64,000 bases of DNA, taken from contig CM000208.1 in the NCBI GenBank assembly GCA_000002445.1, positions 3,680,001 through 3,744,000 on the forward strand. Direction: 5' to 3'. This stretch comes from Trypanosoma brucei. Lineage: Eukaryota. The first letter of the stretch is position 1; every line of letters starts with the position of its first letter. The notes beneath the pieces are model-generated. The model had not been told where the DNA came from, searched no databases, and was given only the letters and a program-made list of their open reading frames with translations. Shown in pieces: positions 12,116 to 33,205 of the stretch. The translations under genes were made by a program, and so were the position numbers.

Positions 12116-14500
12116 ATGGCGCTCTCGCTTGTAGTTGGGTTAGCCAGCGATGCGCTGGAGGGCAGACATAACCATGAGAAACGTTTCGAGGCGTTGCGCG
12201 CACAACTCGGTGGAAGCTCCAGTTGGCGTCAGCAGCAATGTGTCGAAGGTGTTTGTGGTACATTTACTCTGGATGTCCCAATTACTGAAGCGGATGTGGA
12301 CCGGTGGGGAACTCTTCTCAGCGAAAGCGCCCCGCCGCCGGCTCCCCCGAATGCCGCTTTTGCTGGAGGTGGTTTTGTTGACGTTGCAGCATTGTTGGCG
12401 ATGGATAATGAGGGAGACCAGCAGCAGGCGGTGCATAAGCTCGCCCCAATGAAGATGTTTGATCCCAACCAGGTGATTAGACCGGCTATGACAAAAGTGC
12501 TTATGCACCGTCGCAAGTGGCTTCCGTACCGGCAGCGCTTGACCGTTTATCAGTGCCGTACCTCAATCATTGATGCGGTTCTCCGAAACTCAGTAGTGCT
12601 CCTTACCGCCCCACCGGGGAGCGGATGTACCCTACAGCTCCCGCAGATCATATGGGAAACAGAGGTGTTTAAGACAAAGCGCCTCATTATTGTTTGTCCC
12701 ACAACTCTCACGGTTCAACGGACCGTGCAACGGCTGCGAGAGGAACGTGGCGAAGAAGCAACGACGACGACAGTGGGTGAGTGCACTCCAATGTGCTATG
12801 GGGTAACCCCGGGTACGCAGATTGTCGTTACGACTCCGGAAATGTTTGTGCGACAGTTGCTATGTGACCCAATACTCCTTCATGTTGGTTGCGTTATATT
12901 TAATGACATTCACATACGTTCTCCAATAACGGAGTTTTCCCTCTCACTTCTTCGTAGCATGTTGCGGACGCGGGACGAGTGTGGCGTGGGACGACTTGGT
13001 AGTGCGCCGCGTGTTGTGGTTTGCTGTCCTGACGACGCGGTTTCTAATACCATTGCAGAGTACTTTGGAGCTGACCACAGTATGCAGCTGAACCTCCAAC
13101 AGGTGCTTCAACGGGATGTCAAGACGGGGGCAGCCGATGCACTGCGAAGCAGCGGCTCGTACGCATCACCGGTTGTACTCTACCTTGAAGAAACTATGCA
13201 GTGGCTCACAAAGTGCGAGGAGGAGGGAAGCTTTTTGTGTCGTGACCCTGGAGAGGAACTCCGGTGCTATGTGGAAAACATTGGAGTTGTTGCAAAAATA
13301 ATGGCCATGGAAAATGCGGATTTCATGTCAGATGAAAAATTTCGCTCCCACTGGTGCCCTCTCATAGTAAACGCAATTCAGCAACATAGTTTAGCGGAGC
13401 GTAAGGAGCGTGCGACCTTGCTAGCGGAAAATAAGGAAGGGAAGCATCAAGAACTTCGGCAGGGTCACACGGTAGTGGTTGTTGTCGCACCCAACCCTCA
13501 AGTAGTGGCAACTATTGCCCATGCATTGCGCCAGGTGAATGACCAACAGAGGGAGGGGAAAGAAATGGCTCCTTCCATTACTGTTGAAGTATTGCGGGAA
13601 TGCACCACCTCTGATGAATTGCGTCTTCTTTTACGAGAAGGCGGTACGGCAGTGGAGGGCGGTGATCGTTTAGTGTTAGTGGCCACTCCTATTGTGGCAC
13701 AAACTGCGCTTCCACCGTCACTGTCAGTGGGCCTCGTGATTGACTGTGCCCGCCGCTCTTGTGCCACATATAACCCAAATGTTGACACTGATGTATTTTC
13801 CACTTCGTATAGTTACATACAGGAATTGCGGCAACGACGTTCAATTGCCCGTGTGTGTGTGGATAATTCAGGCAAGAAGGAGGAGGAGAGTGGCGTCCCA
13901 GCCCCCATGGTACTGCAGCTAATACCGAAATCTATCCTACACAGCGCCCAACACCGACGTGTGAGCTCTGATCCTGCACACCATTCCATTTTCCACTTAC
14001 CTTGGGTGGATTATGTGCATATATATCACCTGCTGCAAGCCCATGAAGAGGCCTTGTGTTGCCGTGGTCCGTCATCAGCATCCGCCATAGGCAGTTCTCA
14101 CACTGGAAATCTATTGTCACGGAATGTACCCCAACTCGTGTCATCTGCCTTTATCGGTGTTGCTTCACTATCCGCTAGCCGTTATGAGCATCTTAAACGT
14201 ATCTTCATTGCTGTAGAAAATCATTTGGTTCGCCTAGGACACTTGCAGAGACCAAGTGAGGAGCAGTTTGTACCTCGACTTCTGCCACTGGGCGTGGTCA
14301 CGACGTGCTTCGCCCTCCCTATTCCGGTGCTTCGGCTGTTGGTGTGGTCGCGATTGTATGGATGTGTTGTTCCCGCGAGCGTCGTAGCGGCGATTTGGAT
14401 GCTGGGTGATATTTTTTGCACTGTTCAGCACGATGATGAAGCTGCTGAACTTATGCGAGAGTCACGTGTATTTTTTCACATGGCTCCGGGAGCGATGTAG
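12116..14500 (+). CDS. DEAH/RHA-family helicase-like protein with degenerate catalytic motifs (probable pseudo-helicase)
   Basis: Collinear match to DEAH-box motif order. Motif I is APPGSGCTLQLPQI (GSGKT->GSGCT). Motif II is VIFNDIHIRS (DEAH->NDIH). Motif III is VVVCCPDDAVSNTIAEYFG (SAT->CCP). Motif V is VLVATPIVAQTAL...DCARRSCATYNP. Motif VI-like is ELRQRRSIAR. ATG start, 794 aa. Confidence 0.8.
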   Translation: MALSLVVGLASDALEGRHNHEKRFEALRAQLGGSSSWRQQQCVEGVCGTFTLDVPITEADVDRWGTLLSESAPPPAPPNAAFAGGGFVDVAALLAMDNEGDQQQAVHKLAPMKMFDPNQVIRPAMTKVLMHRRKWLPYRQRLTVYQCRTSIIDAVLRNSVVLLTAPPGSGCTLQLPQIIWETEVFKTKRLIIVCPTTLTVQRTVQRLREERGEEATTTTVGECTPMCYGVTPGTQIVVTTPEMFVRQLLCDPILLHVGCVIFNDIHIRSPITEFSLSLLRSMLRTRDECGVGRLGSAPRVVVCCPDDAVSNTIAEYFGADHSMQLNLQQVLQRDVKTGAADALRSSGSYASPVVLYLEETMQWLTKCEEEGSFLCRDPGEELRCYVENIGVVAKIMAMENADFMSDEKFRSHWCPLIVNAIQQHSLAERKERATLLAENKEGKHQELRQGHTVVVVVAPNPQVVATIAHALRQVNDQQREGKEMAPSITVEVLRECTTSDELRLLLREGGTAVEGGDRLVLVATPIVAQTALPPSLSVGLVIDCARRSCATYNPNVDTDVFSTSYSYIQELRQRRSIARVCVDNSGKKEEESGVPAPMVLQLIPKSILHSAQHRRVSSDPAHHSIFHLPWVDYVHIYHLLQAHEEALCCRGPSSASAIGSSHTGNLLSRNVPQLVSSAFIGVASLSASRYEHLKRIFIAVENHLVRLGHLQRPSEEQFVPRLLPLGVVTTCFALPIPVLRLLVWSRLYGCVVPASVVAAIWMLGDIFCTVQHDDEAAELMRESRVFFHMAPGAM

Positions 14501-14523
14501 TGAGTGCGTTTCATGCTTATCGT

Positions 14524-17424
14524 ATGTGGCTTTCCCTACGTGGTACCGCGGGGGAGTCCGGGGATGCCTTCGGGAGTGAGAGTTTTGTTTCGAGTGAAAC
14601 ACTAATCAAGGTGGAAAAGCAACAACTGATGTTATTACATGTGCTTGAGGTAACTGGGGTCATTGCACCTCTCGTATCCCAAGAAATTCGCTTAACTGAG
14701 AGTGGCAAGAGTTCCCCCGCTTCAGTAGGGAAATCACAGGGCGACATTTTCGATACTTTAGCTTCCACTATTCTTGCGATGCCAGAGGCGGCGTTGCTGG
14801 AGGGCAATGGTCTACTTCAGTGCGTAACTGCAGCGCTCTATCCTCAGTATGCCACACCTCTCGATGATGGATCTGCTTTGGCGTTGCGTTTTGTGGAAGG
14901 CGCCGCAAAACCTTCAACCAATGATGGAAACGATGGGTCTGAAGGGGATGCTCAACATGCGGTACCACAACTTGCATTCTTCTCCGAGCTATCCGTGATG
15001 AGCGTGGAGGAGGTATACAAGAGCCACGCGGGAAAGCCGTTTCTATATCTTCATCGTGATGGTGAGCCTGAGGGGAGGATCGCATTGTTGAAAGGAGCTA
15101 CACCCCTATGCATGGACGCGGCGGTTGTTTCATGCGGTGAGCGGTCGGACCATCCGAAGCAACAGGCATCACGGTGCCGGGGGTGGACGTCTGTTATAAC
15201 AAACGCGTGGCGGTTAACGAAATGTGCGCGACGGCTCCCACCCGCAGCGCAGTTACCGCCCGTATCCATACCGTTTAAGTTGTATGACACCATTCAAGCC
15301 CCTCAGGTTATCGTCCAGCTTGACGGAGTGATGTCGCTGTCCATGAGGGCCACAACTGCCAAATGGTTACACCAACTTCGGGAGCATACAAGTTGTAGAC
15401 TACGCGCTCTCGTTGCAGATAAAACATGGCCTGCAGTCCAACAAGAACTCTCCGGTCTTCATGAGGCATGGGAATGGTGGTCAAGACGTGTAGCCAACTC
15501 GCAGGCATGGCTACGAGAGGAGCGGGCTTCCCGTCCTGCCTCTAATGCGAGTTCGGCAGGACATTTAGCTCAGGATAATGATTTAAGAGAGTTATTGTGT
15601 CCATACTATCAGTATAGCTCGAATCCAGGTCGACCTCCAATGGTCGTTCCTCCTAAAAGGCGGCAGGGTGCTGGCGCACCCCTGAATGCATCTTGTTCGA
15701 CCACCGCCGTAGCAGGGACAGATCAACCAACAGCATACAATGGGAAAATGCCCGATCCCGTCATGAGCAATAACATTCAACATTCAGCGAAGAGTATTGC
15801 CAAGGCTCGAAGTCGTGAACAGGAAGCCAAATTCCTGAAGATGTACCCTGACTTGTTTGCCTTCCTCGACCCGGAACATGAGTTCCATGGTTATTACTTA
15901 CATGTGCTACGTCGCGAAGCCCCCGACCTGGAGGTTCTTGGTGATAACTTAGAGGAGCTTGAGAAATTCCTTCAGGATCTTGAAGAGGAGGTTAGGGAAG
16001 AGGTTGGTGCACAGAGTGCTATGGCAACATACGATGGGCGGAACGGTGACCAGTCGTGTTTTGCTGGTGATTATCAAGCGGAGGCTCCCAGAACAGATGC
16101 CTCTTACCAGTTCCAGGAGGTGAATGCTGACGAGTACATGGCCTCCTACGGAATGCAAGTGGAGAGTTCGGTGGAACATGCAACACGTCCACCGGCGTTG
16201 TTCAGAACACAAGATGTGACTCAACCATCTTCTTCCTCTTTGGATAAAGCGGAGAGTGTCCCGGCCGCAGCCTCTTTTTTTACGCAAGGTCCAGCAGTGG
16301 AGAACTCCACATGTGGTATTTTAGGTGATGGCTTCGTGGAGGAGCCTGTAGCGGGCTTGGCCCCACCTGTCGATAACGGTCCGTCATCCGAGAACTTCGC
16401 GTTTACGTCAGGACAGACAACATCGTCGACTTCGATGGCGGGAGCCAAAACAGAAGCAACGGCGTACGGGTTTACCGGGGTCGGTGCGTCAGGCGACGGT
16501 GCTGTTGGGCGTGCACCAACTTTGATGGAGCAGCTGTTGGCGATGAAGGCTGGCGGTGCCTTGGGCCCGGTGCAGCCTGCAGTTTCTGTTCCTCAGGACG
16601 CGATTCCCCAAGACATGGCACCTTCTGCGTCTGCCCAAATCCCTGGTTCTTGGCTTGGAGGTACCGTTGCACCGCCTGTCATCAACTCAGGTTTTGAACT
16701 GCCTTCTTCTTCTGCCATGACCGCCACGTCTTCTTCTCAGACGGCTGCCGCGAACGCTTCCCTCACGAGGGACCTTCTCGAGGTTATGGGAGTCATTCCA
16801 CCTCCACCCCCAGTTAATCCGCTAACAATTGCCCCACCGCCACTTCCTGCGGAAGCCCTTGCAAACCGTCCCCCTTCCGTGTTGGTGTATCCTCTGCCAC
16901 CGCGCGAATACGGAAACATTCCGCTTATTCTTGCCAAGGCAATGGGTGAAACAATGGGAATTAAAGTAGGACCAACACGTCTCGTGGGAAATGTTGGTCG
17001 TATCGATGTTCCGAACCACAAAGTAGAGGCGCGTGCATTGGCACTTAAGTCCTTCACATGCGTGGGCAAAAAGGTGTACATCTTCAAGAATGACCGCATT
17101 GTGGATGGGCCGCGGAATGCAGTGGTTAATAATGCTCCCATTCAACAGCGCAACTCCCGCTTAAATGCCCCACGAGATCTAGTTGGTGAGGGAAATATGT
17201 ATGAACAACCTGATGGTGCCGAGAATGAGGGCTTCGCGCAGTCGCTGAGGAAACTTGTTGAAGACGGCCGGCCCCCACCGATGGCTCATGTACCGGAGAA
17301 TCATTTTGCGGCGAACGCAAGGGCCTCAGCAAAGAAGTCAATCAATCCACAACTAATTGGAGTGTTGTTGGATTCAGATGACGACGGAGATGAGGAATCG
17401 TCAGAAAGATCTGCATCAGTGTAG
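14524..17424 (+). CDS. Hypothetical Pro/Ala/Ser-rich low-complexity protein
   Basis: 2.9 kb uninterrupted ORF. The ORF track begins it at a GTG (14500); the first ATG is at 14524. Low-complexity P/A/S/G-rich C-terminal half with no family match. Starts 24 nt after the upstream stop codon. Confidence 0.55.
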   Translation: MWLSLRGTAGESGDAFGSESFVSSETLIKVEKQQLMLLHVLEVTGVIAPLVSQEIRLTESGKSSPASVGKSQGDIFDTLASTILAMPEAALLEGNGLLQCVTAALYPQYATPLDDGSALALRFVEGAAKPSTNDGNDGSEGDAQHAVPQLAFFSELSVMSVEEVYKSHAGKPFLYLHRDGEPEGRIALLKGATPLCMDAAVVSCGERSDHPKQQASRCRGWTSVITNAWRLTKCARRLPPAAQLPPVSIPFKLYDTIQAPQVIVQLDGVMSLSMRATTAKWLHQLREHTSCRLRALVADKTWPAVQQELSGLHEAWEWWSRRVANSQAWLREERASRPASNASSAGHLAQDNDLRELLCPYYQYSSNPGRPPMVVPPKRRQGAGAPLNASCSTTAVAGTDQPTAYNGKMPDPVMSNNIQHSAKSIAKARSREQEAKFLKMYPDLFAFLDPEHEFHGYYLHVLRREAPDLEVLGDNLEELEKFLQDLEEEVREEVGAQSAMATYDGRNGDQSCFAGDYQAEAPRTDASYQFQEVNADEYMASYGMQVESSVEHATRPPALFRTQDVTQPSSSSLDKAESVPAAASFFTQGPAVENSTCGILGDGFVEEPVAGLAPPVDNGPSSENFAFTSGQTTSSTSMAGAKTEATAYGFTGVGASGDGAVGRAPTLMEQLLAMKAGGALGPVQPAVSVPQDAIPQDMAPSASAQIPGSWLGGTVAPPVINSGFELPSSSAMTATSSSQTAAANASLTRDLLEVMGVIPPPPPVNPLTIAPPPLPAEALANRPPSVLVYPLPPREYGNIPLILAKAMGETMGIKVGPTRLVGNVGRIDVPNHKVEARALALKSFTCVGKKVYIFKNDRIVDGPRNAVVNNAPIQQRNSRLNAPRDLVGEGNMYEQPDGAENEGFAQSLRKLVEDGRPPPMAHVPENHFAANARASAKKSINPQLIGVLLDSDDDGDEESSERSASV

Positions 17425-22384: not shown

Positions 22385-25300
22385 ATGTGTGACCGTCTAA
22401 ATACAATGTCTATCATTTCTCCCAGATCAGCAGCTCCCAGCTCGGGGAGGAGACTTTCGGCGTCACGTCGGGGTCAAGATCGAGAATATCGTCGGACGAA
22501 CTCCTCGCGCTCCGTTTTATCCCAAAGGCAGAAACTTAGTGATTCCATTCACGGCACTGGAAATGCCATGGATGTATACGTGCGTGTACGACCATTTAGT
22601 GAGCGAGAATTATCCATGAACGCGCCGCAGCATAGCACGGTGCGCATTGAAGTAGACAATCCGTGCGTTCTTACGCTTTTGGACCCACAGAAGGACTTCA
22701 AACCCCGCCAATCCTACAGTTTTACACGCTGCTTTTGGTCCGTTCTTGAGAGCGACAGTGCAGACTGTGGGAACGCTGGAGATATATTAAGCGCTATAGG
22801 AACTTATATTGACCGACGCGTAGCCTCTCCTCGCTCGAACCGCCAGCGTCAAGCAACTGGAAATTCGTCCCGTTCTCACTCTGCACGTGGAAAGGGAAGC
22901 GGTGACTTCTCCGGATTTGTTGAAACATCGGGATCCAATGCGGCGTTGCTAACTGTCAACACTGTTCCGCATCCCCCGTATAGCTCACAGGCAGATGTCT
23001 ATAACGAGGTTGGTAGGCCTCTATTAGAGAATTCATTGTTAGGATACAATGGCTGTATCTTTGCATACGGGCAAACAGGTAGCGGCAAGACCTTTACTAT
23101 GCTGGGCTACACGCCAAAAGCCAGTGATTTCCGAAGGTCCAGTCGTCGACAGCAAATTTCTATCGATGAAGCTGATGGGGAGCATTTGTTTAATTCATCT
23201 AGTCCCAGACGGACGGCAACTCCACTGACCAGTAATCGTCTTCGCCGGACCTCGTGGAAAAGCAATATGGTTAGCCCACGAGACACGCGGAGTCTCAGTG
23301 GTACATTCCGGGTGGAAGCAGAGCAGTCTGGTGCCGGGGACGACAACAAGCCGTCGGTTGATCCGAATGAACTACAGGGGATTATTCCCCGCATTACCAG
23401 GGATCTTTTTCAAGGGTTACATGAGGTGCGTCATCGAGAAGCCTCTCATTCTTTTCGTGTGGAGTTGGAGTTCTATGAAATATACAATGAGAAGGTGTAT
23501 GACCTTATAAACCCGCAAAAGGATGCTGACCTAAAGATTCGCCAGAACCCACTCACAGGTCCCTACGTAGAGGGACTTTCTTCATTAGTCGTTGTTAACG
23601 AGGTACAGGTGGCTGAAGTAATTAATAGGGGAAGCGTTGATCGTCACACCTCTTGCACTAGAATGAATGATCGCAGCAGCCGCAGTCACGCCATCATTAC
23701 AATTAATATTCTGCAGCTTTCGCTCGACGGGAAGAACAGCAGCTGTCAAAAGCGTAGTAAGCTCAATCTGGTTGATCTTGCTGGATCGGAGCGTATTGGC
23801 GCGACTGGGGTGGAGGGTTTGCACTTCAAGGAATCCACGAAGATTAACTTGTCACTCACTACGTTGGGTCGAGTCATTGATTGTCTAGCTGAGCTTTCGC
23901 AGTCAAAGGTTCCTTCTGTGACTGCTCCCTATCGCGACTCCAACCTCACATGGCTACTGATGGATTCGTTGGGCGGAAACAGCAAGACATCGATGGTGGC
24001 TACTATTTCACCCCACTGTAGCAATTTTGAGGAGATGCGACAGACAATTCGTTACGCCTCTCGTGCCAGGCAGATCGTCAACGTTGCTGTAGTGAATGAA
24101 GACCCACATGTGCGTCAGATCAATATGCTCACCAATGAAGTAGAGAACCTCAAGAAGGTAATTCGCGAAAATGGAATGAACGAGTTTACCCGCGACTACG
24201 TAATTGACTTACGGCAACGCTACAGCGACTTAGAGAAGCGTTGTGTGGAACAGCAGTTGTCCCTGGTGCAACTACGTGCGGAAATAGAGGAGAATACAAC
24301 TTACAACCGCCAAGATGAACCCACTCCAGTGTCTGGAAGAGCCACGCGAGTGTTCCGCGCGGATTTGAATGGACGACGGACGCGAAACAATGTAAACGGA
24401 GACGAGGCAGATGCCTTAACTGTTTCGCCTCGAGTACCGGAATCAAGGAGATCTGCAGCTGCTGCGTGGCCCACCCCTCCCAAATCGTCCCCGTGCAATA
24501 ACACTTCAAGGAACTCCAATGCTGAGGTCACGGCGGAACTGCGAACTCAAATAAAAAGACTCAAAGACGAGCTGAATACGGTGCGAGTGGACAGTTGCCT
24601 CCAGCAGTATCACGTCAAGGAATTTGCGCTTTCCTACACAACTGCCGTTTCTAACGCCATTTGTGATACTGTCATAAAGAAGAACAAGGAATTTTTGGAT
24701 CAAGCAACTCTGTTGTTTGGCACTCGAGCTGGCAGGAGGGACCCGCACCTCCGTCCTCTAAGCAGGACTCCGCGTCGGGATGTAGATGATTCCAAGAAAG
24801 TTCCCGATTGCAGGTCCTGGCGGCCCGCTGATAAGGCTGAGAATGATAGTCGTTGCGTGACGCCAAGCCGCGCCGGAAAGGCTAAACGGGGGGACCCCGA
24901 TGCTGCGTTGGCGATTGAATGCGCCAAATACCAGACAGAGCTGCAGCGGGTTCGCGATGAACTGGGCTCAGCGATTGTGGAAAGTCAACGGACTTCGGAG
25001 GTTCTTAGGCGGCTTCAGTACGAAAGAGAAGATCTGAAGCGGAAGAATGAGGAAATAAGCTCCAAATACGAGGAAAAAGACAGAGAAGTTCGCCAGTTAA
25101 AACGTCTCTTAGAGAGTGGAGCAAGGAGCCGTGAAGAGGGTGAAGGTGGCGTTGGGAGCGCCACCGATTGGAAAAAACAAGCTGATGAAGAGTTGAACTG
25201 CTTACGCGCTGCATTGCAAAAAATATGCGAGGAACACAGTCGTGTGGAGCAACAGCACCAAGCAGAAATTCATAGCCTTATTAGCCAGCAAGACCGATTG

Positions 25301-25672
25301 TTTAATATTAGCAGCAGCCTTTTGGCCAACTGGGAAAGTCGTTCCGCCGCTCTAGATTCCTCCTTTGCACAGCTTCGAGCTCTCCTGCACAATAAGGAAT
25401 ATCAGAGCCAGCACCAACGATTACGAGACAGCATGTTAGAGCGCAGAAATTACTCTGCAGAAGTTGCCGCCGTGGATGAGCGCAAACGGCGTGACACGCA
25501 GCGGCTCCGTGAAATTATGGAACAGCTAAAGCAGAACCAGAAGGATAGTAAGGCGAGCATTCAAAAATTTGAAGAGGACGTCAGGCAACACTTCTCTGGT
25601 GTTAGAACAGCTAGGGAAGGTAACGGAGGTGAATCTTCATTCGCTAATCCGCACTCTTCACGGCCACGCTGA
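22385..25672 (+). CDS. Kinesin (N-terminal motor domain, coiled-coil tail), first of a tandem pair
   Basis: P-loop GQTGSGKTFTM, switch I NDRSSRSHAI, switch II DLAGSER, neck and coiled-coil tail. ATG start, 1095 aa. The adjacent pair resembles the orphan KIN-C/KIN-D pair of T. brucei; this is from memory and cannot be verified here. Confidence 0.9.
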   Translation: MCDRLNTMSIISPRSAAPSSGRRLSASRRGQDREYRRTNSSRSVLSQRQKLSDSIHGTGNAMDVYVRVRPFSERELSMNAPQHSTVRIEVDNPCVLTLLDPQKDFKPRQSYSFTRCFWSVLESDSADCGNAGDILSAIGTYIDRRVASPRSNRQRQATGNSSRSHSARGKGSGDFSGFVETSGSNAALLTVNTVPHPPYSSQADVYNEVGRPLLENSLLGYNGCIFAYGQTGSGKTFTMLGYTPKASDFRRSSRRQQISIDEADGEHLFNSSSPRRTATPLTSNRLRRTSWKSNMVSPRDTRSLSGTFRVEAEQSGAGDDNKPSVDPNELQGIIPRITRDLFQGLHEVRHREASHSFRVELEFYEIYNEKVYDLINPQKDADLKIRQNPLTGPYVEGLSSLVVVNEVQVAEVINRGSVDRHTSCTRMNDRSSRSHAIITINILQLSLDGKNSSCQKRSKLNLVDLAGSERIGATGVEGLHFKESTKINLSLTTLGRVIDCLAELSQSKVPSVTAPYRDSNLTWLLMDSLGGNSKTSMVATISPHCSNFEEMRQTIRYASRARQIVNVAVVNEDPHVRQINMLTNEVENLKKVIRENGMNEFTRDYVIDLRQRYSDLEKRCVEQQLSLVQLRAEIEENTTYNRQDEPTPVSGRATRVFRADLNGRRTRNNVNGDEADALTVSPRVPESRRSAAAAWPTPPKSSPCNNTSRNSNAEVTAELRTQIKRLKDELNTVRVDSCLQQYHVKEFALSYTTAVSNAICDTVIKKNKEFLDQATLLFGTRAGRRDPHLRPLSRTPRRDVDDSKKVPDCRSWRPADKAENDSRCVTPSRAGKAKRGDPDAALAIECAKYQTELQRVRDELGSAIVESQRTSEVLRRLQYEREDLKRKNEEISSKYEEKDREVRQLKRLLESGARSREEGEGGVGSATDWKKQADEELNCLRAALQKICEEHSRVEQQHQAEIHSLISQQDRLFNISSSLLANWESRSAALDSSFAQLRALLHNKEYQSQHQRLRDSMLERRNYSAEVAAVDERKRRDTQRLREIMEQLKQNQKDSKASIQKFEEDVRQHFSGVRTAREGNGGESSFANPHSSRPR

Positions 25673-28156: not shown

Positions 28157-31100
28157 ATGGTGAGATTAGATCCCAGCGCATCCACGGCGTCATCCATGAC
28201 CACAACCACAGCGACTTCTGCCCTTGATGTTTCATTGACTGAACAGGATACATCACGCAGCAACGGGGGTGCGCAGGACAGCGCGATGCGTGTGTATGTT
28301 CGCATTCGGCCTTTCACCGCGAGTGAACTCTTGGAAAATGGGGAGCGGCCCAACCGGACTATCGCTCTCGACGCGAGAGATGGCCACATAAAAATCATGG
28401 ACCCCTCACGGAACTTCACGACGCGCCTCACGTACGTTTTTGAGCGCTGCTTTGACTCGGCCGAGGCCGGACCAGGAGCGGACCAGGAGGAAGTATACAC
28501 GCATGTTGGTCGTACAGTTCTAAACAACACGGTGGATGGTTACAACGGTTGCATTTTGGCGTATGGACAAACGGGGACTGGTAAAACATACACCATGCTG
28601 GGGCCAAGGGACGTAGTGACTAGTGGGAGGTTATATCGGGAAGAGCTGGCACAGCAAAGCTCCTCTTTTTCTAGTATCACTAAGTTGAAGCTATGCTCGC
28701 CCTCACCCTCCTGCTCAGGCCAGATGAAAGGCATAGATGAGAGTGCCTTTCTGGAACTCTCATTGGGTGGAGATAGTTTTTCGACGACGGAAGAAGGTAT
28801 TATTCCTCGCTTTGCACGTGACCTCTTCAACTCCCTTCGACAAAAGCAGAGAGAAGACAGTTCGTACTCCTACCGCGTGGAAATGGAGTTCTATGAAATT
28901 TATAACGAAAAAGTCTTTGATCTCATCTCAGGTGGGCACTCTACAAATGACCTTCGGGTAAGGCACCAGACCGTACGGGGTGTTTTTGTGGAAGGTCTGG
29001 ACCGGAAGCCAATAGCAGCAGAGGAAGATTTATTGTTCTGGATGTACCGGGGAAGCATTGAGCGTCATACCGCTTCCACTAAAATGAATGATCGCAGCAG
29101 CCGCAGTCACGCCATCCTTTCCATTCACGTTGTACAAATGACACTTGATGAAAATAATAATACTAACCGCGTCAGTAGTAAGCTCAATCTGGTTGATCTT
29201 GCTGGATCGGAGCGTATTGGCGCTAGTGGGGTGGAGGGTTTGCACTTCAAGGAATCCACGAAGATTAACTTGTCGCTCACGGCACTGGGTCGAGTCATTG
29301 ATTGTCTAGCTGATGCTTCAACGGGTAAACCGAGCGCATTCTGTCCGTACCGTGAATCCAACCTCACATGGCTACTGATGGATTCGTTGGGCGGAAACAG
29401 CAAGACATCGATGGTGGCTACCGTTTCCCCGTGCGTGGAGCACTACGAAGTGACATGTCAAACACTGCGTTATGCCTCTCGTGCGAAGCAGATCGTCAAC
29501 GTTGCCGTCGTGAATGAAGACCCACAGGTACGCCAGATCAAGAAGCTCACTGCCGAAGTGTCGAGACTAAAGCAGCTACTGAACAATCAGTCTATTTGTG
29601 ACTATAGCAATGAAGAAGTTGAACGGTTGCGCCAGCGAGTGGTGCAACTTCAGCAGGAGGCGGTTGAACGTGACTTCATGTTGGAGACGTTTCGCGAAGA
29701 GTTGAACGACAAAACTAGTTTGATGAATCACCATCGCAACGGAAGTGTCACCCTTTGCAAACACAACGCTAATGGTAAACAACACCAACAGGGGGGAGAG
29801 ACGATGACCAAGGATGAGGTTAACAGCCCACACCTGATGCAAAGGACGAAGGGAAAGGAGTCAACAGGGGGTGCAGCAACCGGTGATTGTGGGGGAAAAC
29901 AGAGTTCTCGGTCAGTAAATCCGTATCTCAATGCCAGGACGTTACAGCAGCTGAAGTACCTTCGAATTGAGGCCGATCAAGACTACGGTACACTGATAGC
30001 TACGCTGGCGCGGTGTGCATTCGACGCTACAATGAATTACGAATGCACGTTGCAGAAAAACATCATGATGATAAACTCTCATAGTCATGCCTTGCGAGAA
30101 AACGTGCAAAAGATGGAGTCCAAGGAATGGTTGGTACTTGCTTCCATTGGAGATAGGCTTCTTTCCGAGTTCGCTAAGGCATGCGGAAAGCATGCGAGCA
30201 CCCCAAGGCACCACGAAACGGTGAAACCCAAGGGACTGAAGACCCCTGAAGTTGAAGTCCAGGATAAGGATAGGGATAAGGCACGAATGGAAATAAACAG
30301 GCTGCGAGAGCGGCTGTATGATGCCATGGTGGAAAACGATGGGCTCAAAGAGCGTTGTGAGGCGTTGGAAAAGGAAGCGCACAACTTCTCCAAAATGGAA
30401 AGAACTCTAAAGCAAAAGTTAGCTACTCTGCAGGCTGAACTAGATGGGGCCGGTCCTAAGGTGATTGCATGGGCAACAAACACCATGAAGGCGGAACCAG
30501 GGTTGACACCGAGAACTGCTGTGAATACCACCAGGGAAAATCACGACTGTCCCAAAGAGGGGCGGAGGATGTCACCTCTACTCCCCAGCGCGAGATGTGT
30601 CCAAGCACGCAAGGTAAAACACAGTCCCCGTCAAAAGGAGGTTGGAACCACTCGTCGTGTTGCAGAAAAAAATGGGACCGAAGCGCAGCTTGAAAACAGT
30701 GTATGTTCCCTCTCTGTTCCAGTGTTGAACCTCCGTCAGATCAGCGCAGCAGCTTTTCTCAGGTCTGCGATTGACTCTCACCACGATGCGCTGCTTGATC
30801 TTCTGATGGATAAGTTCCGCTTGGTCGGCAACCTGTACGAACAATATGCTAAGAGCTTTCTCGGAAAAAACCCTTTAACTGGGAGCAACGGAAAAAGCGA
30901 ATGCCCTGAAAAAGAGCTGACGCTTGCAGAAGAACGATTGCCAAGCAAAAAAGTCCCAAAAAGGTCTGTCGAGGTGCAGAAAAAAAGTAAGGTCGCGAGT
31001 GATATGATTTCATCCAGGGGGCGTGGTCGGGGCGGAGTTTTAACGGGAGATGATGCGCTATGCAGGGAGTCAACCGTTACCTTGCACAGTCCCAGGGGCG

Positions 31101-33205
31101 CAGAGAATGCTAAGGGGTTGCAACGACGCTGTCATCAAAAAGCGCAAGCTACGACAGTCCGAAAGACATCCAGAAGAACTCTTGGAAGCAGCAGCGATAC
31201 CTTTTTACCTGACTGCGAGGAAGAAGTCACCTTTTTGAAGGAACAGTTTACCAGGAGGGAATCTGGGATTAAAAAGGAGCATCAGTCGGTTGTCAGGGAG
31301 CTGCAAAACAACTTAGCTGAGGCAGTGAAAAGAGCGGCCCAGGAATATAAACAACTCTTGGATCAATCTAGCAACGAAAAGAAGCAGTTGAACGAGCAAC
31401 TTGCCAAGTATGGATCAATTGCGGCTGCTGCTGAGAAGACTAAGGAAAGTGTCTCCGAACAAACGCGTTTGTTCAGGGAGCAATGTAGCGGACGAACTGC
31501 AATTGAGATCGAACAGATGGAGGTTTGGGCATCCACAGTGGCGAGCAGCGTAGCGAGTATTTACCGTCTACGAAAGGAACAGGAAAGTGTTGCTGCCGCA
31601 AAGGAACGGCAACAACTTATTAATCAGGCGGCCTGCGACAAAGCGGAACTAACGTGCTCCCTTCGCCACAGAACTGAAGTGCTTTTGGAGTGGGTATCCG
31701 GGCGTGAAGTTCTCCTCTGCGAAGAAGAAAGGACTCGTGCCCACCTTGTTCTTCGTTTCCGCGAGCAGGGAATTGCGTCTGGATGTTGCGCGGAGCTTTC
31801 CACCATGCTTGTTGAGAGCCACAAGTTACTTACCGAACATTGTGTAGTTGAACACCAGGTGTTTATAGAAGGAGTTACGCCCATCTGCAATGCGTTCCTG
31901 GGCGCCAGTAATGCCCTAGCAAAGGAAAAGAGCCATGTTATGCAGTTGCAAGGTCAGGTGCGCTCTGCAGTAATGGGTCAATGCCGACAACAGTTACTGC
32001 AATGCCGAGAGGATGAAATTAGTGCCAGGGAGGCGATTCTCGCGTCTCAAGATAGCGAAGCTGCAGTGATCAAAGACGCGTTAAGACGTATTGGTGGCGC
32101 TATAGTGATAAACCAAAAGTTTGTGACGGATTTGCGAAATCGACTAAACACCGCGCAAACGGAGCAGCATCGACATCAACTACGGGGATGTTTGGAATAT
32201 GAAGCTAACTCCCGCAACACTATCCTTGCAGCACAAAAGGACGGAGTCGCAACAATCAGATTTGCGTTTGAGCAGGCCCATCTTGCTTTGGAGCAGAAAC
32301 AATACCAGACGACGCGATTGAATGCTGAGCTGGACTGCTCCAAGAATAATAACCATCTTCAAGGGGTGCGTGTGTGCTTGGACAGTGAGACCGACGCTCG
32401 GGACCATCTTGTTGCGTATCAACAGGGTGAATGGCAGGTACTTGAGTTGTGTTTTAACACGGGTCGCAAGATGTTGATGGATAATGCGAGGTATTTATGT
32501 GGGTTATTGGATACGGCCAATACTTCTCTCGCAGCCGCTGTTGTGCGTGCGCCAAAATCTGCATTGGGAGCTGTTTTTCTCTTTGAGCAACATGAGCGGT
32601 TCGTTTTGGAGGAACTGAACGCACATACCACTTGTCTACAAGACGCACATCGCGAGTTATCCGTTTTGTTATCAACCAGTCAAGTACAACGTGAGTGTGA
32701 CGTCACACTCACGGCACTTGAAAACTACTACTCGGAGGAGCTTGCACGCACAGAGAAGGAAAACAAGGAGCTGAAGGCGAATATACAAATATTGCGTGAG
32801 AACCTCGACTTTCAAGCCAGCTTGGACCAACTCCAGGCTGAAATCGAAGGAGACGGACCAGCTGGGCTGGGTTCGGGTGGAGGATCTGAGGGCGACCCAC
32901 TTTCCCTCACGCAGCACCGTGAGGGTTTGGGCATTAGCGGCCTCATCTCTAACTTTTTCACTCGGGTTGGATATGTTCGAAAGGATGGATTGCCACGCGA
33001 CTTTTCTCCCAGGATGATGATGTCGCACACAAGCAGTGAAGAGGATTTTGGTGCCATGAGTGATGCTGCTGCACGGTTTGGTTACACTCCTGTGAAAGAT
33101 GGTAGGAACAGGAGGAACAGCATGCAATCCATAGTAGGAAGCGCTCTTTTCCCCCCAAATCATGACAGCACGCCACTGCGCGATGATGATGCGAGCATCC
33201 AGTAG
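28157..33205 (+). CDS. Kinesin (N-terminal motor domain, long coiled-coil tail), second of the tandem pair
   Basis: P-loop GQTGTGKTYTM, switch I NDRSSRSHAI, switch II DLAGSER. 1682 aa with an extended coiled-coil tail. ATG start. Confidence 0.9.
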   Translation: MVRLDPSASTASSMTTTTATSALDVSLTEQDTSRSNGGAQDSAMRVYVRIRPFTASELLENGERPNRTIALDARDGHIKIMDPSRNFTTRLTYVFERCFDSAEAGPGADQEEVYTHVGRTVLNNTVDGYNGCILAYGQTGTGKTYTMLGPRDVVTSGRLYREELAQQSSSFSSITKLKLCSPSPSCSGQMKGIDESAFLELSLGGDSFSTTEEGIIPRFARDLFNSLRQKQREDSSYSYRVEMEFYEIYNEKVFDLISGGHSTNDLRVRHQTVRGVFVEGLDRKPIAAEEDLLFWMYRGSIERHTASTKMNDRSSRSHAILSIHVVQMTLDENNNTNRVSSKLNLVDLAGSERIGASGVEGLHFKESTKINLSLTALGRVIDCLADASTGKPSAFCPYRESNLTWLLMDSLGGNSKTSMVATVSPCVEHYEVTCQTLRYASRAKQIVNVAVVNEDPQVRQIKKLTAEVSRLKQLLNNQSICDYSNEEVERLRQRVVQLQQEAVERDFMLETFREELNDKTSLMNHHRNGSVTLCKHNANGKQHQQGGETMTKDEVNSPHLMQRTKGKESTGGAATGDCGGKQSSRSVNPYLNARTLQQLKYLRIEADQDYGTLIATLARCAFDATMNYECTLQKNIMMINSHSHALRENVQKMESKEWLVLASIGDRLLSEFAKACGKHASTPRHHETVKPKGLKTPEVEVQDKDRDKARMEINRLRERLYDAMVENDGLKERCEALEKEAHNFSKMERTLKQKLATLQAELDGAGPKVIAWATNTMKAEPGLTPRTAVNTTRENHDCPKEGRRMSPLLPSARCVQARKVKHSPRQKEVGTTRRVAEKNGTEAQLENSVCSLSVPVLNLRQISAAAFLRSAIDSHHDALLDLLMDKFRLVGNLYEQYAKSFLGKNPLTGSNGKSECPEKELTLAEERLPSKKVPKRSVEVQKKSKVASDMISSRGRGRGGVLTGDDALCRESTVTLHSPRGAENAKGLQRRCHQKAQATTVRKTSRRTLGSSSDTFLPDCEEEVTFLKEQFTRRESGIKKEHQSVVRELQNNLAEAVKRAAQEYKQLLDQSSNEKKQLNEQLAKYGSIAAAAEKTKESVSEQTRLFREQCSGRTAIEIEQMEVWASTVASSVASIYRLRKEQESVAAAKERQQLINQAACDKAELTCSLRHRTEVLLEWVSGREVLLCEEERTRAHLVLRFREQGIASGCCAELSTMLVESHKLLTEHCVVEHQVFIEGVTPICNAFLGASNALAKEKSHVMQLQGQVRSAVMGQCRQQLLQCREDEISAREAILASQDSEAAVIKDALRRIGGAIVINQKFVTDLRNRLNTAQTEQHRHQLRGCLEYEANSRNTILAAQKDGVATIRFAFEQAHLALEQKQYQTTRLNAELDCSKNNNHLQGVRVCLDSETDARDHLVAYQQGEWQVLELCFNTGRKMLMDNARYLCGLLDTANTSLAAAVVRAPKSALGAVFLFEQHERFVLEELNAHTTCLQDAHRELSVLLSTSQVQRECDVTLTALENYYSEELARTEKENKELKANIQILRENLDFQASLDQLQAEIEGDGPAGLGSGGGSEGDPLSLTQHREGLGISGLISNFFTRVGYVRKDGLPRDFSPRMMMSHTSSEEDFGAMSDAAARFGYTPVKDGRNRRNSMQSIVGSALFPPNHDSTPLRDDDASIQ

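What the first reader, a model, noticed from the sequence alone, without database searches (positions are those of the whole stretch)
23650..24130. Near-identical nucleotide tracts shared by the two tandem kinesin motor domains, suggesting gene conversion
The two kinesin genes are ~5.8 kb apart and diverge strongly at protein level in the N-terminal half of the motor and in the tails. The switch I / switch II half of the motor contains long runs that are identical at the DNA level, including synonymous positions. Example: aatgaatgatcgcagcagccgcagtcacgccatc at 23672 and again at 29084. A ~170-nt stretch from agtaagctcaatctggttgatcttgctggatcggagcgtattggcgc onward is ~93% identical between 23756-23920 and 29179-29330. 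A 66-nt run tccaacctcacatggctactgatggattcgttgggcggaaacagcaagacatcgatggtggctac is identical at 23940 and 29348. The flanking sequence is not conserved. This mosaic pattern indicates recent homogenisation between paralogues, not purifying selection alone. The same identity produces spurious identical minus-strand ORFs (MQTLHPSRANTLRSSKINQIELTT at 23585-23824 and MQTLHPTSANTLRSSKINQIELTT at 29030-29245).
Basis: seen in the sequence. Interest (0 to 1): 0.5.

Follow-up and report, generated by a model that had tools for sequence, protein, structure and literature searches.

The report
Patchy gene conversion between neighbouring kinesins
Two ancient neighbouring kinesin motor genes of Trypanosoma brucei (FAZ7 and the gene downstream) have repeatedly copied short stretches of the same half of their motor domain from each other; this is a well-supported but ordinary kind of gene conversion, and it matters mainly for phylogeny, RNAi design and genome assembly.

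Summary
The window is T. b. brucei TREU927 chromosome 10. Gene A (22385-25672) is the FAZ7-type kinesin and gene B (28157-33205) is its downstream paralogue.

Identical DNA runs of 34, 49, 48, 28 and 65 nt lie in the switch I, switch II/alpha4 and L12/alpha5 part of the motor. Blocks between them are as diverged as the rest of the genes.

- Codons: at conserved amino acids the paralogues use the same codon at 87/113 sites in 23650-24130, against 34/108 in the N-terminal motor (Fisher p = 7e-12).
- dS: 0-0.16 in three tracts, and saturated in the N-half and intervening blocks.
- Trees: the N-half and intervening blocks group by gene (100% bootstrap); the tracts group T. brucei A with B (100%).
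- Other lineages: the same holds independently for T. theileri/T. melophagium. Weaker signs occur in T. conorhini, T. cruzi and T. rangeli, and none in T. vivax.
- Constraint excluded: orthologues share only 32-46% of these codons, which rules out codon bias or nucleotide-level constraint.
- Timing and direction: diagnostic residues show transfers both ways. Some are shared with T. congolense and some are brucei-specific.

The kind of process is known. This instance was not found in the literature searched.

The parts
22385..25672 (+). Kinesin A, 1095 aa. It is identical to T. b. brucei TREU927 XP_828010.1. It is the FAZ7-type kinesin (Tb927.10.15390 by inference).
   Evidence: ORF. PF00225 at 2.4e-88. 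Identical to the TREU927 protein. Leishmania orthologues are annotated FAZ7. FAZ7 = Tb927.10.15390 in PMC4406125.
28157..33205 (+). Kinesin B, 1682 aa. It is identical to TREU927 XP_828011.1. It is the downstream tandem paralogue and is followed by the MDH gene.
   Evidence: ORF. PF00225 at 1.3e-95. Identity. The synteny Utp11-A-B-MDH is conserved in T. melophagium, T. cruzi, T. vivax, T. brucei gambiense and T. equiperdum, with MDH at the locus edge in T. theileri and T. conorhini.
23662..23695 (+). Tract 1 in A (switch I, NDRSSRSH). It is 34 nt identical to B 29083-29116.
   Evidence: dS = 0. T. congolense A has RVNDCSS here, so this event looks brucei-specific and B to A.
29083..29116 (+). 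Tract 1 in B.
23754..23892 (+). Tract 2 in A (switch II DLAGSE to alpha4 and RVIDCLA). It is 139 nt, 95% identical to B 29175-29313, with exact runs of 49, 48 and 28 nt.
   Evidence: dS = 0.155. A carries the B-type residues V (23810) and K (23828). B carries the A-type residue C (23882). All four brucei/congolense genes share the derived residues I (23795) and S (23834).
29175..29313 (+). Tract 2 in B.
23803..23805 (+). Two-nucleotide difference from B (GCG ACT against GCT AGT; Thr474 against Ser). It is private to TREU927. A in DAL972 and in T. equiperdum reads exactly as B, which gives a 100-nt identical run in those strains.
23926..24012 (+). Tract 3 in A (L12/alpha5, SNLTWLLMDSLGGNSKTSMVAT). 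It is 87 nt, 92% identical to B 29344-29430, and includes the 65-nt exact run 23939-24003.
   Evidence: dS = 0.125. Within-species runs of 29-77 nt occur at the same place in T. theileri, T. rangeli, T. cruzi, T. melophagium and T. conorhini.
29344..29430 (+). Tract 3 in B.
24041..24160 (+). Tract 4 in A (alpha6 RYASRA to the neck linker VNEDP). It is 120 nt, 79% identical to B 29459-29578, with runs of 18 and 17 nt. It looks older or decayed.
   Evidence: dS = 0.44. QIVNVAVVNEDP is shared by A and B of both T. brucei and T. congolense, against the A-type QIVNKAVINEDP.
29459..29578 (+). Tract 4 in B.
23696..23753 (+). Intervening block 1 in A. It is unconverted and keeps A-specific residues. 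The blocks at 23894-23932 and 24005-24052 behave the same way.
   Evidence: dS is saturated and dN is 0.56-1.07. These blocks group by gene with 100% bootstrap.
23456..23508 (+). Possible old minor tract (EFYEIYNEKV). It is 53 nt, 77% identical to 28874-28926, with a 16-nt exact run.
   Evidence: The derived F at 23471 is shared by A and B of both T. brucei and T. congolense. This evidence is weak.

Best explanation
Repeated, short-tract, non-allelic gene conversion has occurred between two ancient tandem paralogues on T. brucei chromosome 10. These are the FAZ7-type kinesin and the kinesin 5.4 kb downstream.

The duplication predates the genus Trypanosoma. Both genes keep their own orthologues, their own N-terminal motor half with gene-specific loop insertions, and their own tails.

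In the C-terminal motor half, protein conservation keeps about 480 nt at roughly 78-80% DNA identity. Within it, breaks in one gene have been repaired from the other gene as template. This left patches of 30-140 nt that are identical or nearly so.

The patches cover switch I, switch II/alpha4 and L12/alpha5, and more weakly alpha6 and the neck linker. Between them lie blocks that hold paralogue-specific residues and were never homogenised.

What is shown:
- A segment-specific collapse of synonymous divergence.
- Tracts that cluster by species while flanks cluster by gene.
- Derived residues shared by both paralogues.
- Transfers in both directions.
- Events of different ages.

What is inferred:
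- The molecular route, taken to be the RAD51/BRCA2-dependent, mismatch-tolerant, short templated repair with short-patch mismatch correction described experimentally in T. brucei.
- That tract limits are set by local homology and by selection against loss of paralogue-specific residues.
For: Codon identity at conserved residues is 87/113 in 23650-24130, 34/108 in the N-half and 40/127 in the tail. Codon usage predicts about one third. Fisher p = 7e-12.

dS between A and B is saturated in the N-half and the intervening blocks. In the tracts it is 0, 0.155, 0.125 and 0.44. T. vivax A/B is saturated everywhere. None of 20000 permutations reached the observed clustering.

Segment trees: A and B clades get 100% bootstrap for the N-half and intervening blocks. 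In the tracts, T. brucei A+B form one clade (100%), and T. melophagium/T. theileri A+B independently form another (100%).

At residues invariant in all 17 sequences, T. brucei A/B share 65/81 codons. T. brucei shares only 26-37/81 with its orthologues. Cross-species exact runs are at most 23 nt, except between the sister species T. melophagium and T. theileri (up to 32 nt); the longest within-species run is 65-100 nt in T. brucei and 38-77 nt in T. theileri, T. rangeli, T. melophagium, T. conorhini and T. cruzi (15 nt in T. vivax).

Diagnostic residues:
- A of T. brucei and T. congolense carries B-type GVEGLHFKES and NVAVV.
- T. vivax A keeps the A type.
- T. brucei B, but not T. congolense B, carries the A-type RVIDCLA.
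- The derived I and S in SERIGA...KES are shared by all four genes.

The pattern appears in three independent assemblies: TREU927, DAL972 and T. equiperdum.

Mechanistic fit. T. brucei HR depends on length and mismatches, has a short-substrate pathway, and uses short-patch mismatch repair that gives discontinuous tracts (PMC1904282). Break-induced templated insertions in VSGs average about 45-55 bp. They need about 100 bp of imperfect homology, tolerate about 20% mismatch, and depend on RAD51 and BRCA2 (PMC13233330).

The P-loop island is conserved at the protein level but unconverted. It is only about 66 nt long and is flanked by indels, so it lacks about 100 bp of homology.
Against: - No T. 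congolense DNA was available. Events shared with that species rest on amino-acid states only.
- Tract columns for the tree were chosen from T. brucei identity. This is partly circular for T. brucei. It is offset by the invariant-residue test and by the independent T. theileri-clade result.
- Trees are NJ on JC distances, not ML. GENECONV and RDP themselves were not run.
- There is no clear evidence of conversion since the T. brucei subspecies split. The one clustered polymorphism (23803/23805) is most simply a TREU927-private change away from the paralogue.
- GC3 shows no clear biased-conversion signal.
- The molecular pathway is inferred by analogy, not tested.
Confidence: 0.9

Rival explanations
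1. There is no DNA exchange. The identical runs reflect strong purifying selection on the most conserved kinesin motifs, combined with shared codon preference.
For: The tracts coincide with the most conserved protein motifs: switch I, switch II and L12/alpha5.
Against: Motifs that are equally conserved in the N-half share few codons: 2/16 around the P-loop and 5/16 around EIYNEK. At residues invariant in all 17 sequences, T. brucei A/B share 80% of codons, while orthologues share 32-46%. Codon usage predicts 35.6/113 and 87 are observed. T. vivax A/B has the same motifs with saturated dS.
Confidence: 0.03
2. A functional nucleotide-level element keeps the DNA identical in both genes. Candidates are an RNA structure, a regulatory site or the antisense ORF.
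For: Similar minus-strand ORFs exist at 23585-23824 and 29030-29245.
Against: Apart from comparisons between the sister species T. melophagium and T. theileri, cross-species comparisons of the same columns show no exact run longer than 23 nt, and codon sharing is at background level. The antisense ORFs are short, start with GTG, and diverge wherever the sense strands diverge. Trypanosome genes lie in unidirectional polycistrons. All 19 ORFs of at least 250 aa in the window are on the + strand.
Confidence: 0.02
3. One long conversion, or a chimeric duplication, once covered the whole C-terminal motor half. The intervening blocks then re-diverged under positive selection.
For: The tracts are collinear and closely spaced. 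In L. major the FAZ7 pair shows a single continuous tract of about 1 kb.
Against: The intervening blocks carry the same paralogue-specific residues as orthologues in all other trypanosomes. A has SPHC.NF.EMRQT and B has SP...HY.E.CQT. These blocks group by gene at 100% and have saturated dS, so they were never replaced. The tracts also differ in age and in direction.
Confidence: 0.03
4. Conversion occurs but is not neutral. Homogenisation of the switch II / microtubule-binding half is favoured by selection. One reason could be that the two motors work as a heterodimer, or on the same track or regulator, and must stay mechanochemically matched.
For: The same motor half is homogenised independently in several lineages: brucei/congolense, theileri/melophagium, conorhini, and weakly cruzi and rangeli. 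In L. major the whole FAZ7A/B motor is homogenised.
Against: Recurrence is also expected from homology alone, because this is the only long stretch of about 80% identity. T. vivax shows none. Leishmania FAZ7A and FAZ7B localise differently and are not redundant (PMC8244899). There are no data on interaction between A and B.
Confidence: 0.12
5. It is an assembly artefact: reads from one paralogue were assembled into the other.
For: The T. equiperdum assembly has a gap of Ns inside the 65-nt tract of gene B, so the repeat does disturb assemblies.
Against: The same tracts, with the same A/B differences, appear in TREU927, DAL972 and T. equiperdum. The T. congolense proteins carry the same mosaic. 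Independent species show their own tracts.
Confidence: 0.01

Closest known systems
Concerted evolution and allelic or ectopic gene conversion in T. brucei tandem gene arrays (Jackson 2007, BMC Evol Biol 7:54, PMC1855330)
   Same: Same organism and same process: homogenisation between tandem duplicates. It was detected by the same criteria used here, namely clustering of silent sites and paralogues grouping by species.
   Different: That survey covers arrays of similar copies, and its main text never mentions kinesins. Here the two genes are ancient and functionally distinct, with about 37% identity in the N-terminal motor and unrelated tails. Only about 300 nt in four patches is homogenised.
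Break-induced mosaic VSG formation in T. brucei (Nature 2026, PMC13233330)
   Same: Short templated patches copied between diverged paralogues. The tract sizes are similar (mean 45-55 bp, under 300 bp), junctions fall in short perfect matches, and about 100 bp of roughly 80% homology is enough. This matches runs of 17-100 nt inside a segment of 78-80% identity.
   Different: VSG mosaics are somatic, diversifying and immune-selected in an expression site. Here the outcome is germline-fixed homogenisation of housekeeping motor genes in the chromosome core. Dependence on RAD51/BRCA2 and on a break is not shown here.
Leishmania FAZ7A/FAZ7B duplicated kinesins (PLoS Pathog 2021, PMC8244899)
   Same: Same gene family (Tryp2 kinesins, FAZ7) and same syntenic locus after Utp11. 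The paralogues have a conserved motor and unrelated tails. In L. major I find a motor tract of about 1 kb that is 100% identical.
   Different: That pair is a Leishmania-lineage duplication of the A-type gene, not the A/B pair. The paper reports 52% motor identity in L. mexicana and does not discuss conversion.
Classical partial gene conversion between diverged paralogues, such as primate globin, opsin or RH gene pairs (from general knowledge)
   Same: A mosaic of homogenised exonic patches, bounded by diverged sequence and by selection for paralogue-specific residues.
   Different: Different organisms and genes. Here there are no introns, and the patches are set by protein-motif islands within a single domain.

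Membership tests
Non-allelic (interlocus) gene conversion between paralogues | Local collapse of synonymous divergence relative to the flanks | tested here: met
   dS is 0-0.16 in three tracts and 0.44 in the fourth. It is saturated in the N-half and intervening blocks. Same-codon use is 87/113 against 34/108.
Non-allelic (interlocus) gene conversion between paralogues | Phylogenetic incongruence: paralogues group by species in the tract and by gene outside it | tested here: met
   NJ trees with 200 bootstraps. The tracts group T. brucei A+B at 100%. The N-half and intervening blocks give A and B clades at 100%.
Non-allelic (interlocus) gene conversion between paralogues | Significant clustering of shared silent sites (the GENECONV-type distribution criterion) | tested here: met
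   My own permutation of same/different codon states reached the observed score in 0 of 20000 shuffles. GENECONV and RDP themselves were not available.
Non-allelic (interlocus) gene conversion between paralogues | Identity not explained by constraint on the nucleotides themselves | tested here: met
   Orthologues share 32-46% of codons at invariant residues, against 80% for the paralogues. Cross-species runs are at most 23 nt, except between the sister species T. melophagium and T. theileri (up to 32 nt).
Non-allelic (interlocus) gene conversion between paralogues | Derived states shared by both paralogues, or donor-type states in the recipient | tested here: met
   23795 I and 23834 S are shared derived states. 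23810 V and 23828 K are B-type states in A. 23882 C is an A-type state in B.
Non-allelic (interlocus) gene conversion between paralogues | Non-reciprocal transfer observed directly | not testable with these tools
   This needs experimental break-repair assays or pedigree and population data.
Kinesin motor domain (Pfam PF00225) | Match above the gathering score, with P-loop, switch I and switch II motifs | tested here: met
   A scores 296.7 bits and B 320.6 bits against a cut-off of 29.3. The motifs are located.
FAZ7 / Tryp2 trypanosomatid-specific kinesins | Gene A is Tb927.10.15390 (FAZ7) | tested here: inconclusive
   A is identical to TREU927 XP_828010.1 on chromosome 10. Its best Leishmania matches are annotated FAZ7. 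The literature equates FAZ7 with Tb927.10.15390, a kinesin. The link from accession to gene ID could not be looked up directly.
RAD51/BRCA2-dependent short templated repair (mosaic-VSG type) | Short tracts under 300 bp, with junctions in short perfect matches within about 100 bp or more of imperfect homology | tested here: met
   Runs are 17-100 nt and blocks 87-139 nt, inside about 480 nt at 77-80% identity. The reference parameters come from PMC13233330.
RAD51/BRCA2-dependent short templated repair (mosaic-VSG type) | Dependence on a DNA break and on RAD51/BRCA2 | not testable with these tools
   This requires genetics.

The most novel reading that the evidence does not exclude
The homogenisation is not just tolerated but selected. 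On this reading, the switch II / microtubule-binding half of FAZ7 and of its neighbour is kept matched by conversion because the two motors act together, for example as a heterodimer or on a shared track at the FAZ tip. Several trypanosomatid lineages have then converged on converting the same half-domain. If so, it would be a case of concerted evolution of a sub-domain that serves functional coupling.
Probability: 0.1. Interest if true: 0.6.

Novelty: new member of a known kind. Interest (0 to 1): 0.35.

Why it matters
This is a clean, well-dated example showing that short-tract, mismatch-tolerant templated repair also leaves lasting footprints in core housekeeping genes. That repair route is known in T. 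brucei from transfection assays and from VSG mosaics. Here it has acted on paralogues that have been separate since before the genus arose.

Practical consequences:
1. Kinesin phylogenies of the Tryp2/FAZ7 family that use the motor domain will be misled, because half of the motor tracks species rather than gene.
2. Runs of 65-100 nt of perfect identity mean that RNAi fragments, probes or guide RNAs placed in the C-terminal motor half of FAZ7 can also hit the neighbouring kinesin.
3. Short-read assemblies break or become chimeric here. The T. equiperdum gene B has a gap inside the tract.

The recurrence of the pattern in several lineages, and in Leishmania FAZ7A/B, makes this locus a natural system for studying how homology length and selection shape conversion tracts.

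Tried and rejected
- T. congolense DNA: the look-up of P0002 found no record. Only protein states could be used for that species.
- An apparent excess of shared codons near 22682-22740 (8/9): the nucleotide view shows no identity run, so I treat it as chance.
- The 23803/23805 polymorphism: I first read it as a fresh conversion in gambiense. Adding two T. equiperdum assemblies and the T. congolense residue shows that the paralogue-identical allele is the common one and probably ancestral. TREU927 therefore carries the private change. I do not count it as evidence of ongoing conversion.
- Two derived T. equiperdum gene-B states that match gene A (23854, 24115): I did not use them, because that gene has an assembly gap in the same region.
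- GC3 enrichment as a sign of biased gene conversion: 0.59 in the tracts against 0.45-0.55 elsewhere in T. brucei, and not consistent across species. This is inconclusive.
- T. vivax gene A: it needed a 1-nt frame correction before it could be used.
- Literature search for this pair plus 'gene conversion': no description was found. The library covers only open-access papers.
Full report
**What is there.** The window carries two kinesin ORFs on the + strand. A lies at 22385-25672 (1095 aa) and B at 28157-33205 (1682 aa). Both match the Pfam kinesin motor domain far above threshold.

The two proteins are identical to T. b. brucei TREU927 XP_828010.1 and XP_828011.1. They are 99% identical to the T. 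b. gambiense chromosome 10 genes. Gene order is Utp11 - A - B - malate dehydrogenase. This order is conserved in T. melophagium, T. cruzi, T. vivax, T. brucei gambiense and T. equiperdum, and T. theileri and T. conorhini agree with MDH at the edge of the locus; the T. rangeli locus ends before MDH and T. grayi has the two genes on separate contigs.

The best Leishmania matches of A are annotated 'flagellum attachment zone protein 7'. The literature names Tb927.10.15390, a kinesin at the distal FAZ tip, as FAZ7, a member of the trypanosomatid-specific Tryp2 kinesins (PMC4406125; PMC8244899). Gene A is therefore FAZ7 by inference, and B is its downstream neighbour.

**Checking the observation.** A codon-level alignment of A and B gives exact shared runs of:
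- 34 nt (23662/29083)
- 49 nt (23754/29175)
- 48 nt (23806/29227)
- 28 nt (23865/29286)
- 65 nt (23939/29357)
- 18 nt (24070/29488)
- 17 nt (24092/29510)

The repeat finder independently reports 139 nt at 95% (23754-23892 / 29175-29313), 87 nt at 92% (23926-24012 / 29344-29430), and weaker blocks at 24041-24160, 23628-23736 and 23456-23508. Nothing is shared in the tails or intergenic DNA. Outside this region the longest word shared by the genes is 16 nt.

The 34-mer is at 23662, not 23672. The long run is 65 nt at 23939/29357. The '~170 nt at ~93%' stretch is 139 nt at 95%, and 84% over the stated span. The two minus-strand ORFs exist but start with GTG. They are by-products of the sense-strand identity.

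**Is it more than protein conservation?** Yes.
- Where A and B have the same degenerate amino acid, they use the same codon at 87/113 positions in 23650-24130. The figures are 34/108 in the N-terminal motor and 40/127 in the tail.
- Codon usage predicts about one third in all three regions (Fisher p = 7e-12).
- The P-loop block is 17/20 identical at the protein level yet shares only 2/16 codons.
- Nei-Gojobori dS between A and B is saturated in the N-half and in the three blocks between the tracts. In the four tracts it is 0, 0.155, 0.125 and 0.44.
- A permutation of same/different codon states never reached the observed clustering (0 of 20000).

**Is it constraint on the nucleotides?** No. 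I took only columns whose amino acid is invariant in all 17 sequences from 8 taxa, a choice that does not depend on DNA identity. In the C-half, T. brucei A and B share 65/81 codons. T. brucei shares only 26-37/81 with its own orthologues, and in the N-half A/B share 16/58. Apart from comparisons between the sister species T. melophagium and T. theileri (up to 32 nt), exact runs between species never exceed 23 nt in these columns. T. vivax has the same protein motifs but saturated dS throughout.

I made NJ trees with 200 bootstraps on codon alignments.
- For the N-terminal motor (239 codons) and the intervening blocks (47 codons), all A genes and all B genes form separate clades at 100%. The duplication is therefore older than the genus.
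- For the tract columns (110 codons), T. brucei A and B form one clade at 100%, also with third positions alone.
- In the same columns, T. melophagium and T. theileri A and B form one clade at 100%. This is an independent instance that predates the split of those two species.

The choice of tract columns is partly circular for T. brucei. It is not circular for the T. theileri clade, and the invariant-residue test above is free of that bias.

**Direction and timing.** Diagnostic residues come from the alignment that includes the T. congolense proteins.
- Ancestral A-type: SERTGAVGAEGKQFLEG...RVIDCLAD...QIVNKAVINEDP.
- Ancestral B-type: SERTGASGVEGK.FKEA...RVIDALAD.
- T. vivax B: GVEGLHFKEA and NTAVV.
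- T. vivax A: keeps the A type.

T. brucei A and T. congolense A carry the B-type GVEGLHFKES and NVAVV. This implies B-to-A transfer after the T. vivax split, either shared by the two species or recurrent in both. All four brucei/congolense genes share the derived I (23795) and S (23834).

T. brucei B has the A-type RVIDCLA, while T. congolense B keeps RVIDALA. This implies an A-to-B transfer specific to the T. brucei line. Switch I reads RMNDRSS in T. brucei A, as in B, but RVNDCSS in T. congolense A, which again is brucei-specific.

Within the T. brucei group the tracts are nearly the same in TREU927, DAL972 and T. equiperdum. The one clustered difference is at 23803/23805. It is private to TREU927; the other two assemblies read exactly as gene B there, giving a 100-nt identical run. 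The simplest reading is that A was identical to B here in the T. brucei ancestor and TREU927 changed later. I therefore have no firm evidence of exchange since the subspecies split.

**Other lineages.** Within-species A/B runs of 29-77 nt fall on the L12/alpha5 motif in T. theileri, T. rangeli, T. cruzi, T. melophagium and T. conorhini. At invariant residues, T. conorhini A/B share 68% of codons in the C-half against 34% in the N-half. In L. major the two FAZ7-type genes share about 1 kb of essentially 100% identical DNA covering most of the motor, with unrelated tails.

**Mechanism (inferred).** T. brucei homologous recombination depends on substrate length and is impeded by mismatches. It also has a pathway for short substrates, and it repairs heteroduplex by short-patch mismatch repair, which gives discontinuous tracts (PMC1904282).

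Break-induced templated repair between diverged VSGs inserts patches averaging about 45-55 bp. It needs about 100 bp of imperfect homology, tolerates about 20% mismatch, uses junctions of about 9-12 bp, and depends on RAD51 and BRCA2 (PMC13233330).

The C-terminal motor half of A and B is about 480 nt at 77-80% identity, so it meets these requirements. The P-loop and EIYNEK islands are 53-66 nt long and bounded by indels and diverged loops, so they do not.

The blocks that stay diverged hold residues that are paralogue-specific across all trypanosomes. Selection, as well as poor local homology, probably keeps them from being overwritten.

**Rivals.**
- Protein constraint plus codon bias, a nucleotide-level element, a single long conversion followed by re-divergence, and an assembly artefact are each contradicted by the data above.
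- A selected version of conversion, in which the two motors are kept matched, is not excluded. Nothing here requires it.

**Novelty.** Gene conversion in T. brucei tandem arrays is well described (PMC1855330), but that paper's main text does not mention kinesins. The FAZ7 papers do not mention conversion. Searches combining these terms found nothing on this pair. This is a new, well-supported instance of a known process, and its interest is moderate.

Noticed in passing
L009 10421-11410 and 19715-20705 (Leishmania major, GCA_916722125.1): The two tandem FAZ7-type kinesins of L. major are about 100% identical at the DNA level over roughly 1 kb of the motor domain. Their N-termini are 70-87% identical and their tails 27-58%. 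The L. mexicana paper reports only 52% motor identity. This is either a recent lineage-specific conversion or an assembly issue.
   Followed up: partly
window 14470 (ORFs 12116-14500 and 14500-17424): A T-run is one base shorter here than in T. b. gambiense. This splits what is a single gene of about 1769 aa (weak DEAD-helicase match) in gambiense and T. equiperdum into two abutting ORFs in different frames. It is either a sequencing error or a strain-specific frameshift.
   Followed up: partly
L011 about 17050-17250 (T. equiperdum gene B): The assembly has a run of Ns inside the 65-nt identical tract, and gene B is annotated as two fragments of 441 and 1175 aa. The paralogue identity seems to break short-read assembly. 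Two nearby B states match gene A, but they cannot be trusted.
   Followed up: partly
L003 about 4787 (T. vivax gene A) and L003 13939-14011 (gene B): T. vivax gene A has a 1-nt frameshift within switch II, and both A and B are annotated as split ORFs. This is either assembly indels or real decay. T. vivax is also the only species with no sign of A/B conversion.
   Followed up: partly
L005 17116-23462 and L008 15881-22243: Gene B of T. rangeli and of T. conorhini is annotated as three consecutive ORFs, not as one gene of about 1650 aa. This is probably due to frameshifts in draft assemblies.
   Followed up: no
window 22760-22976 and 23100-23340: Gene A and all its orthologues carry two long, low-complexity insertions inside the N-terminal motor. 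One lies after RCFWSV and one after the P-loop helix. Gene B lacks both. Pfam therefore matches the A motor in two pieces.
   Followed up: no
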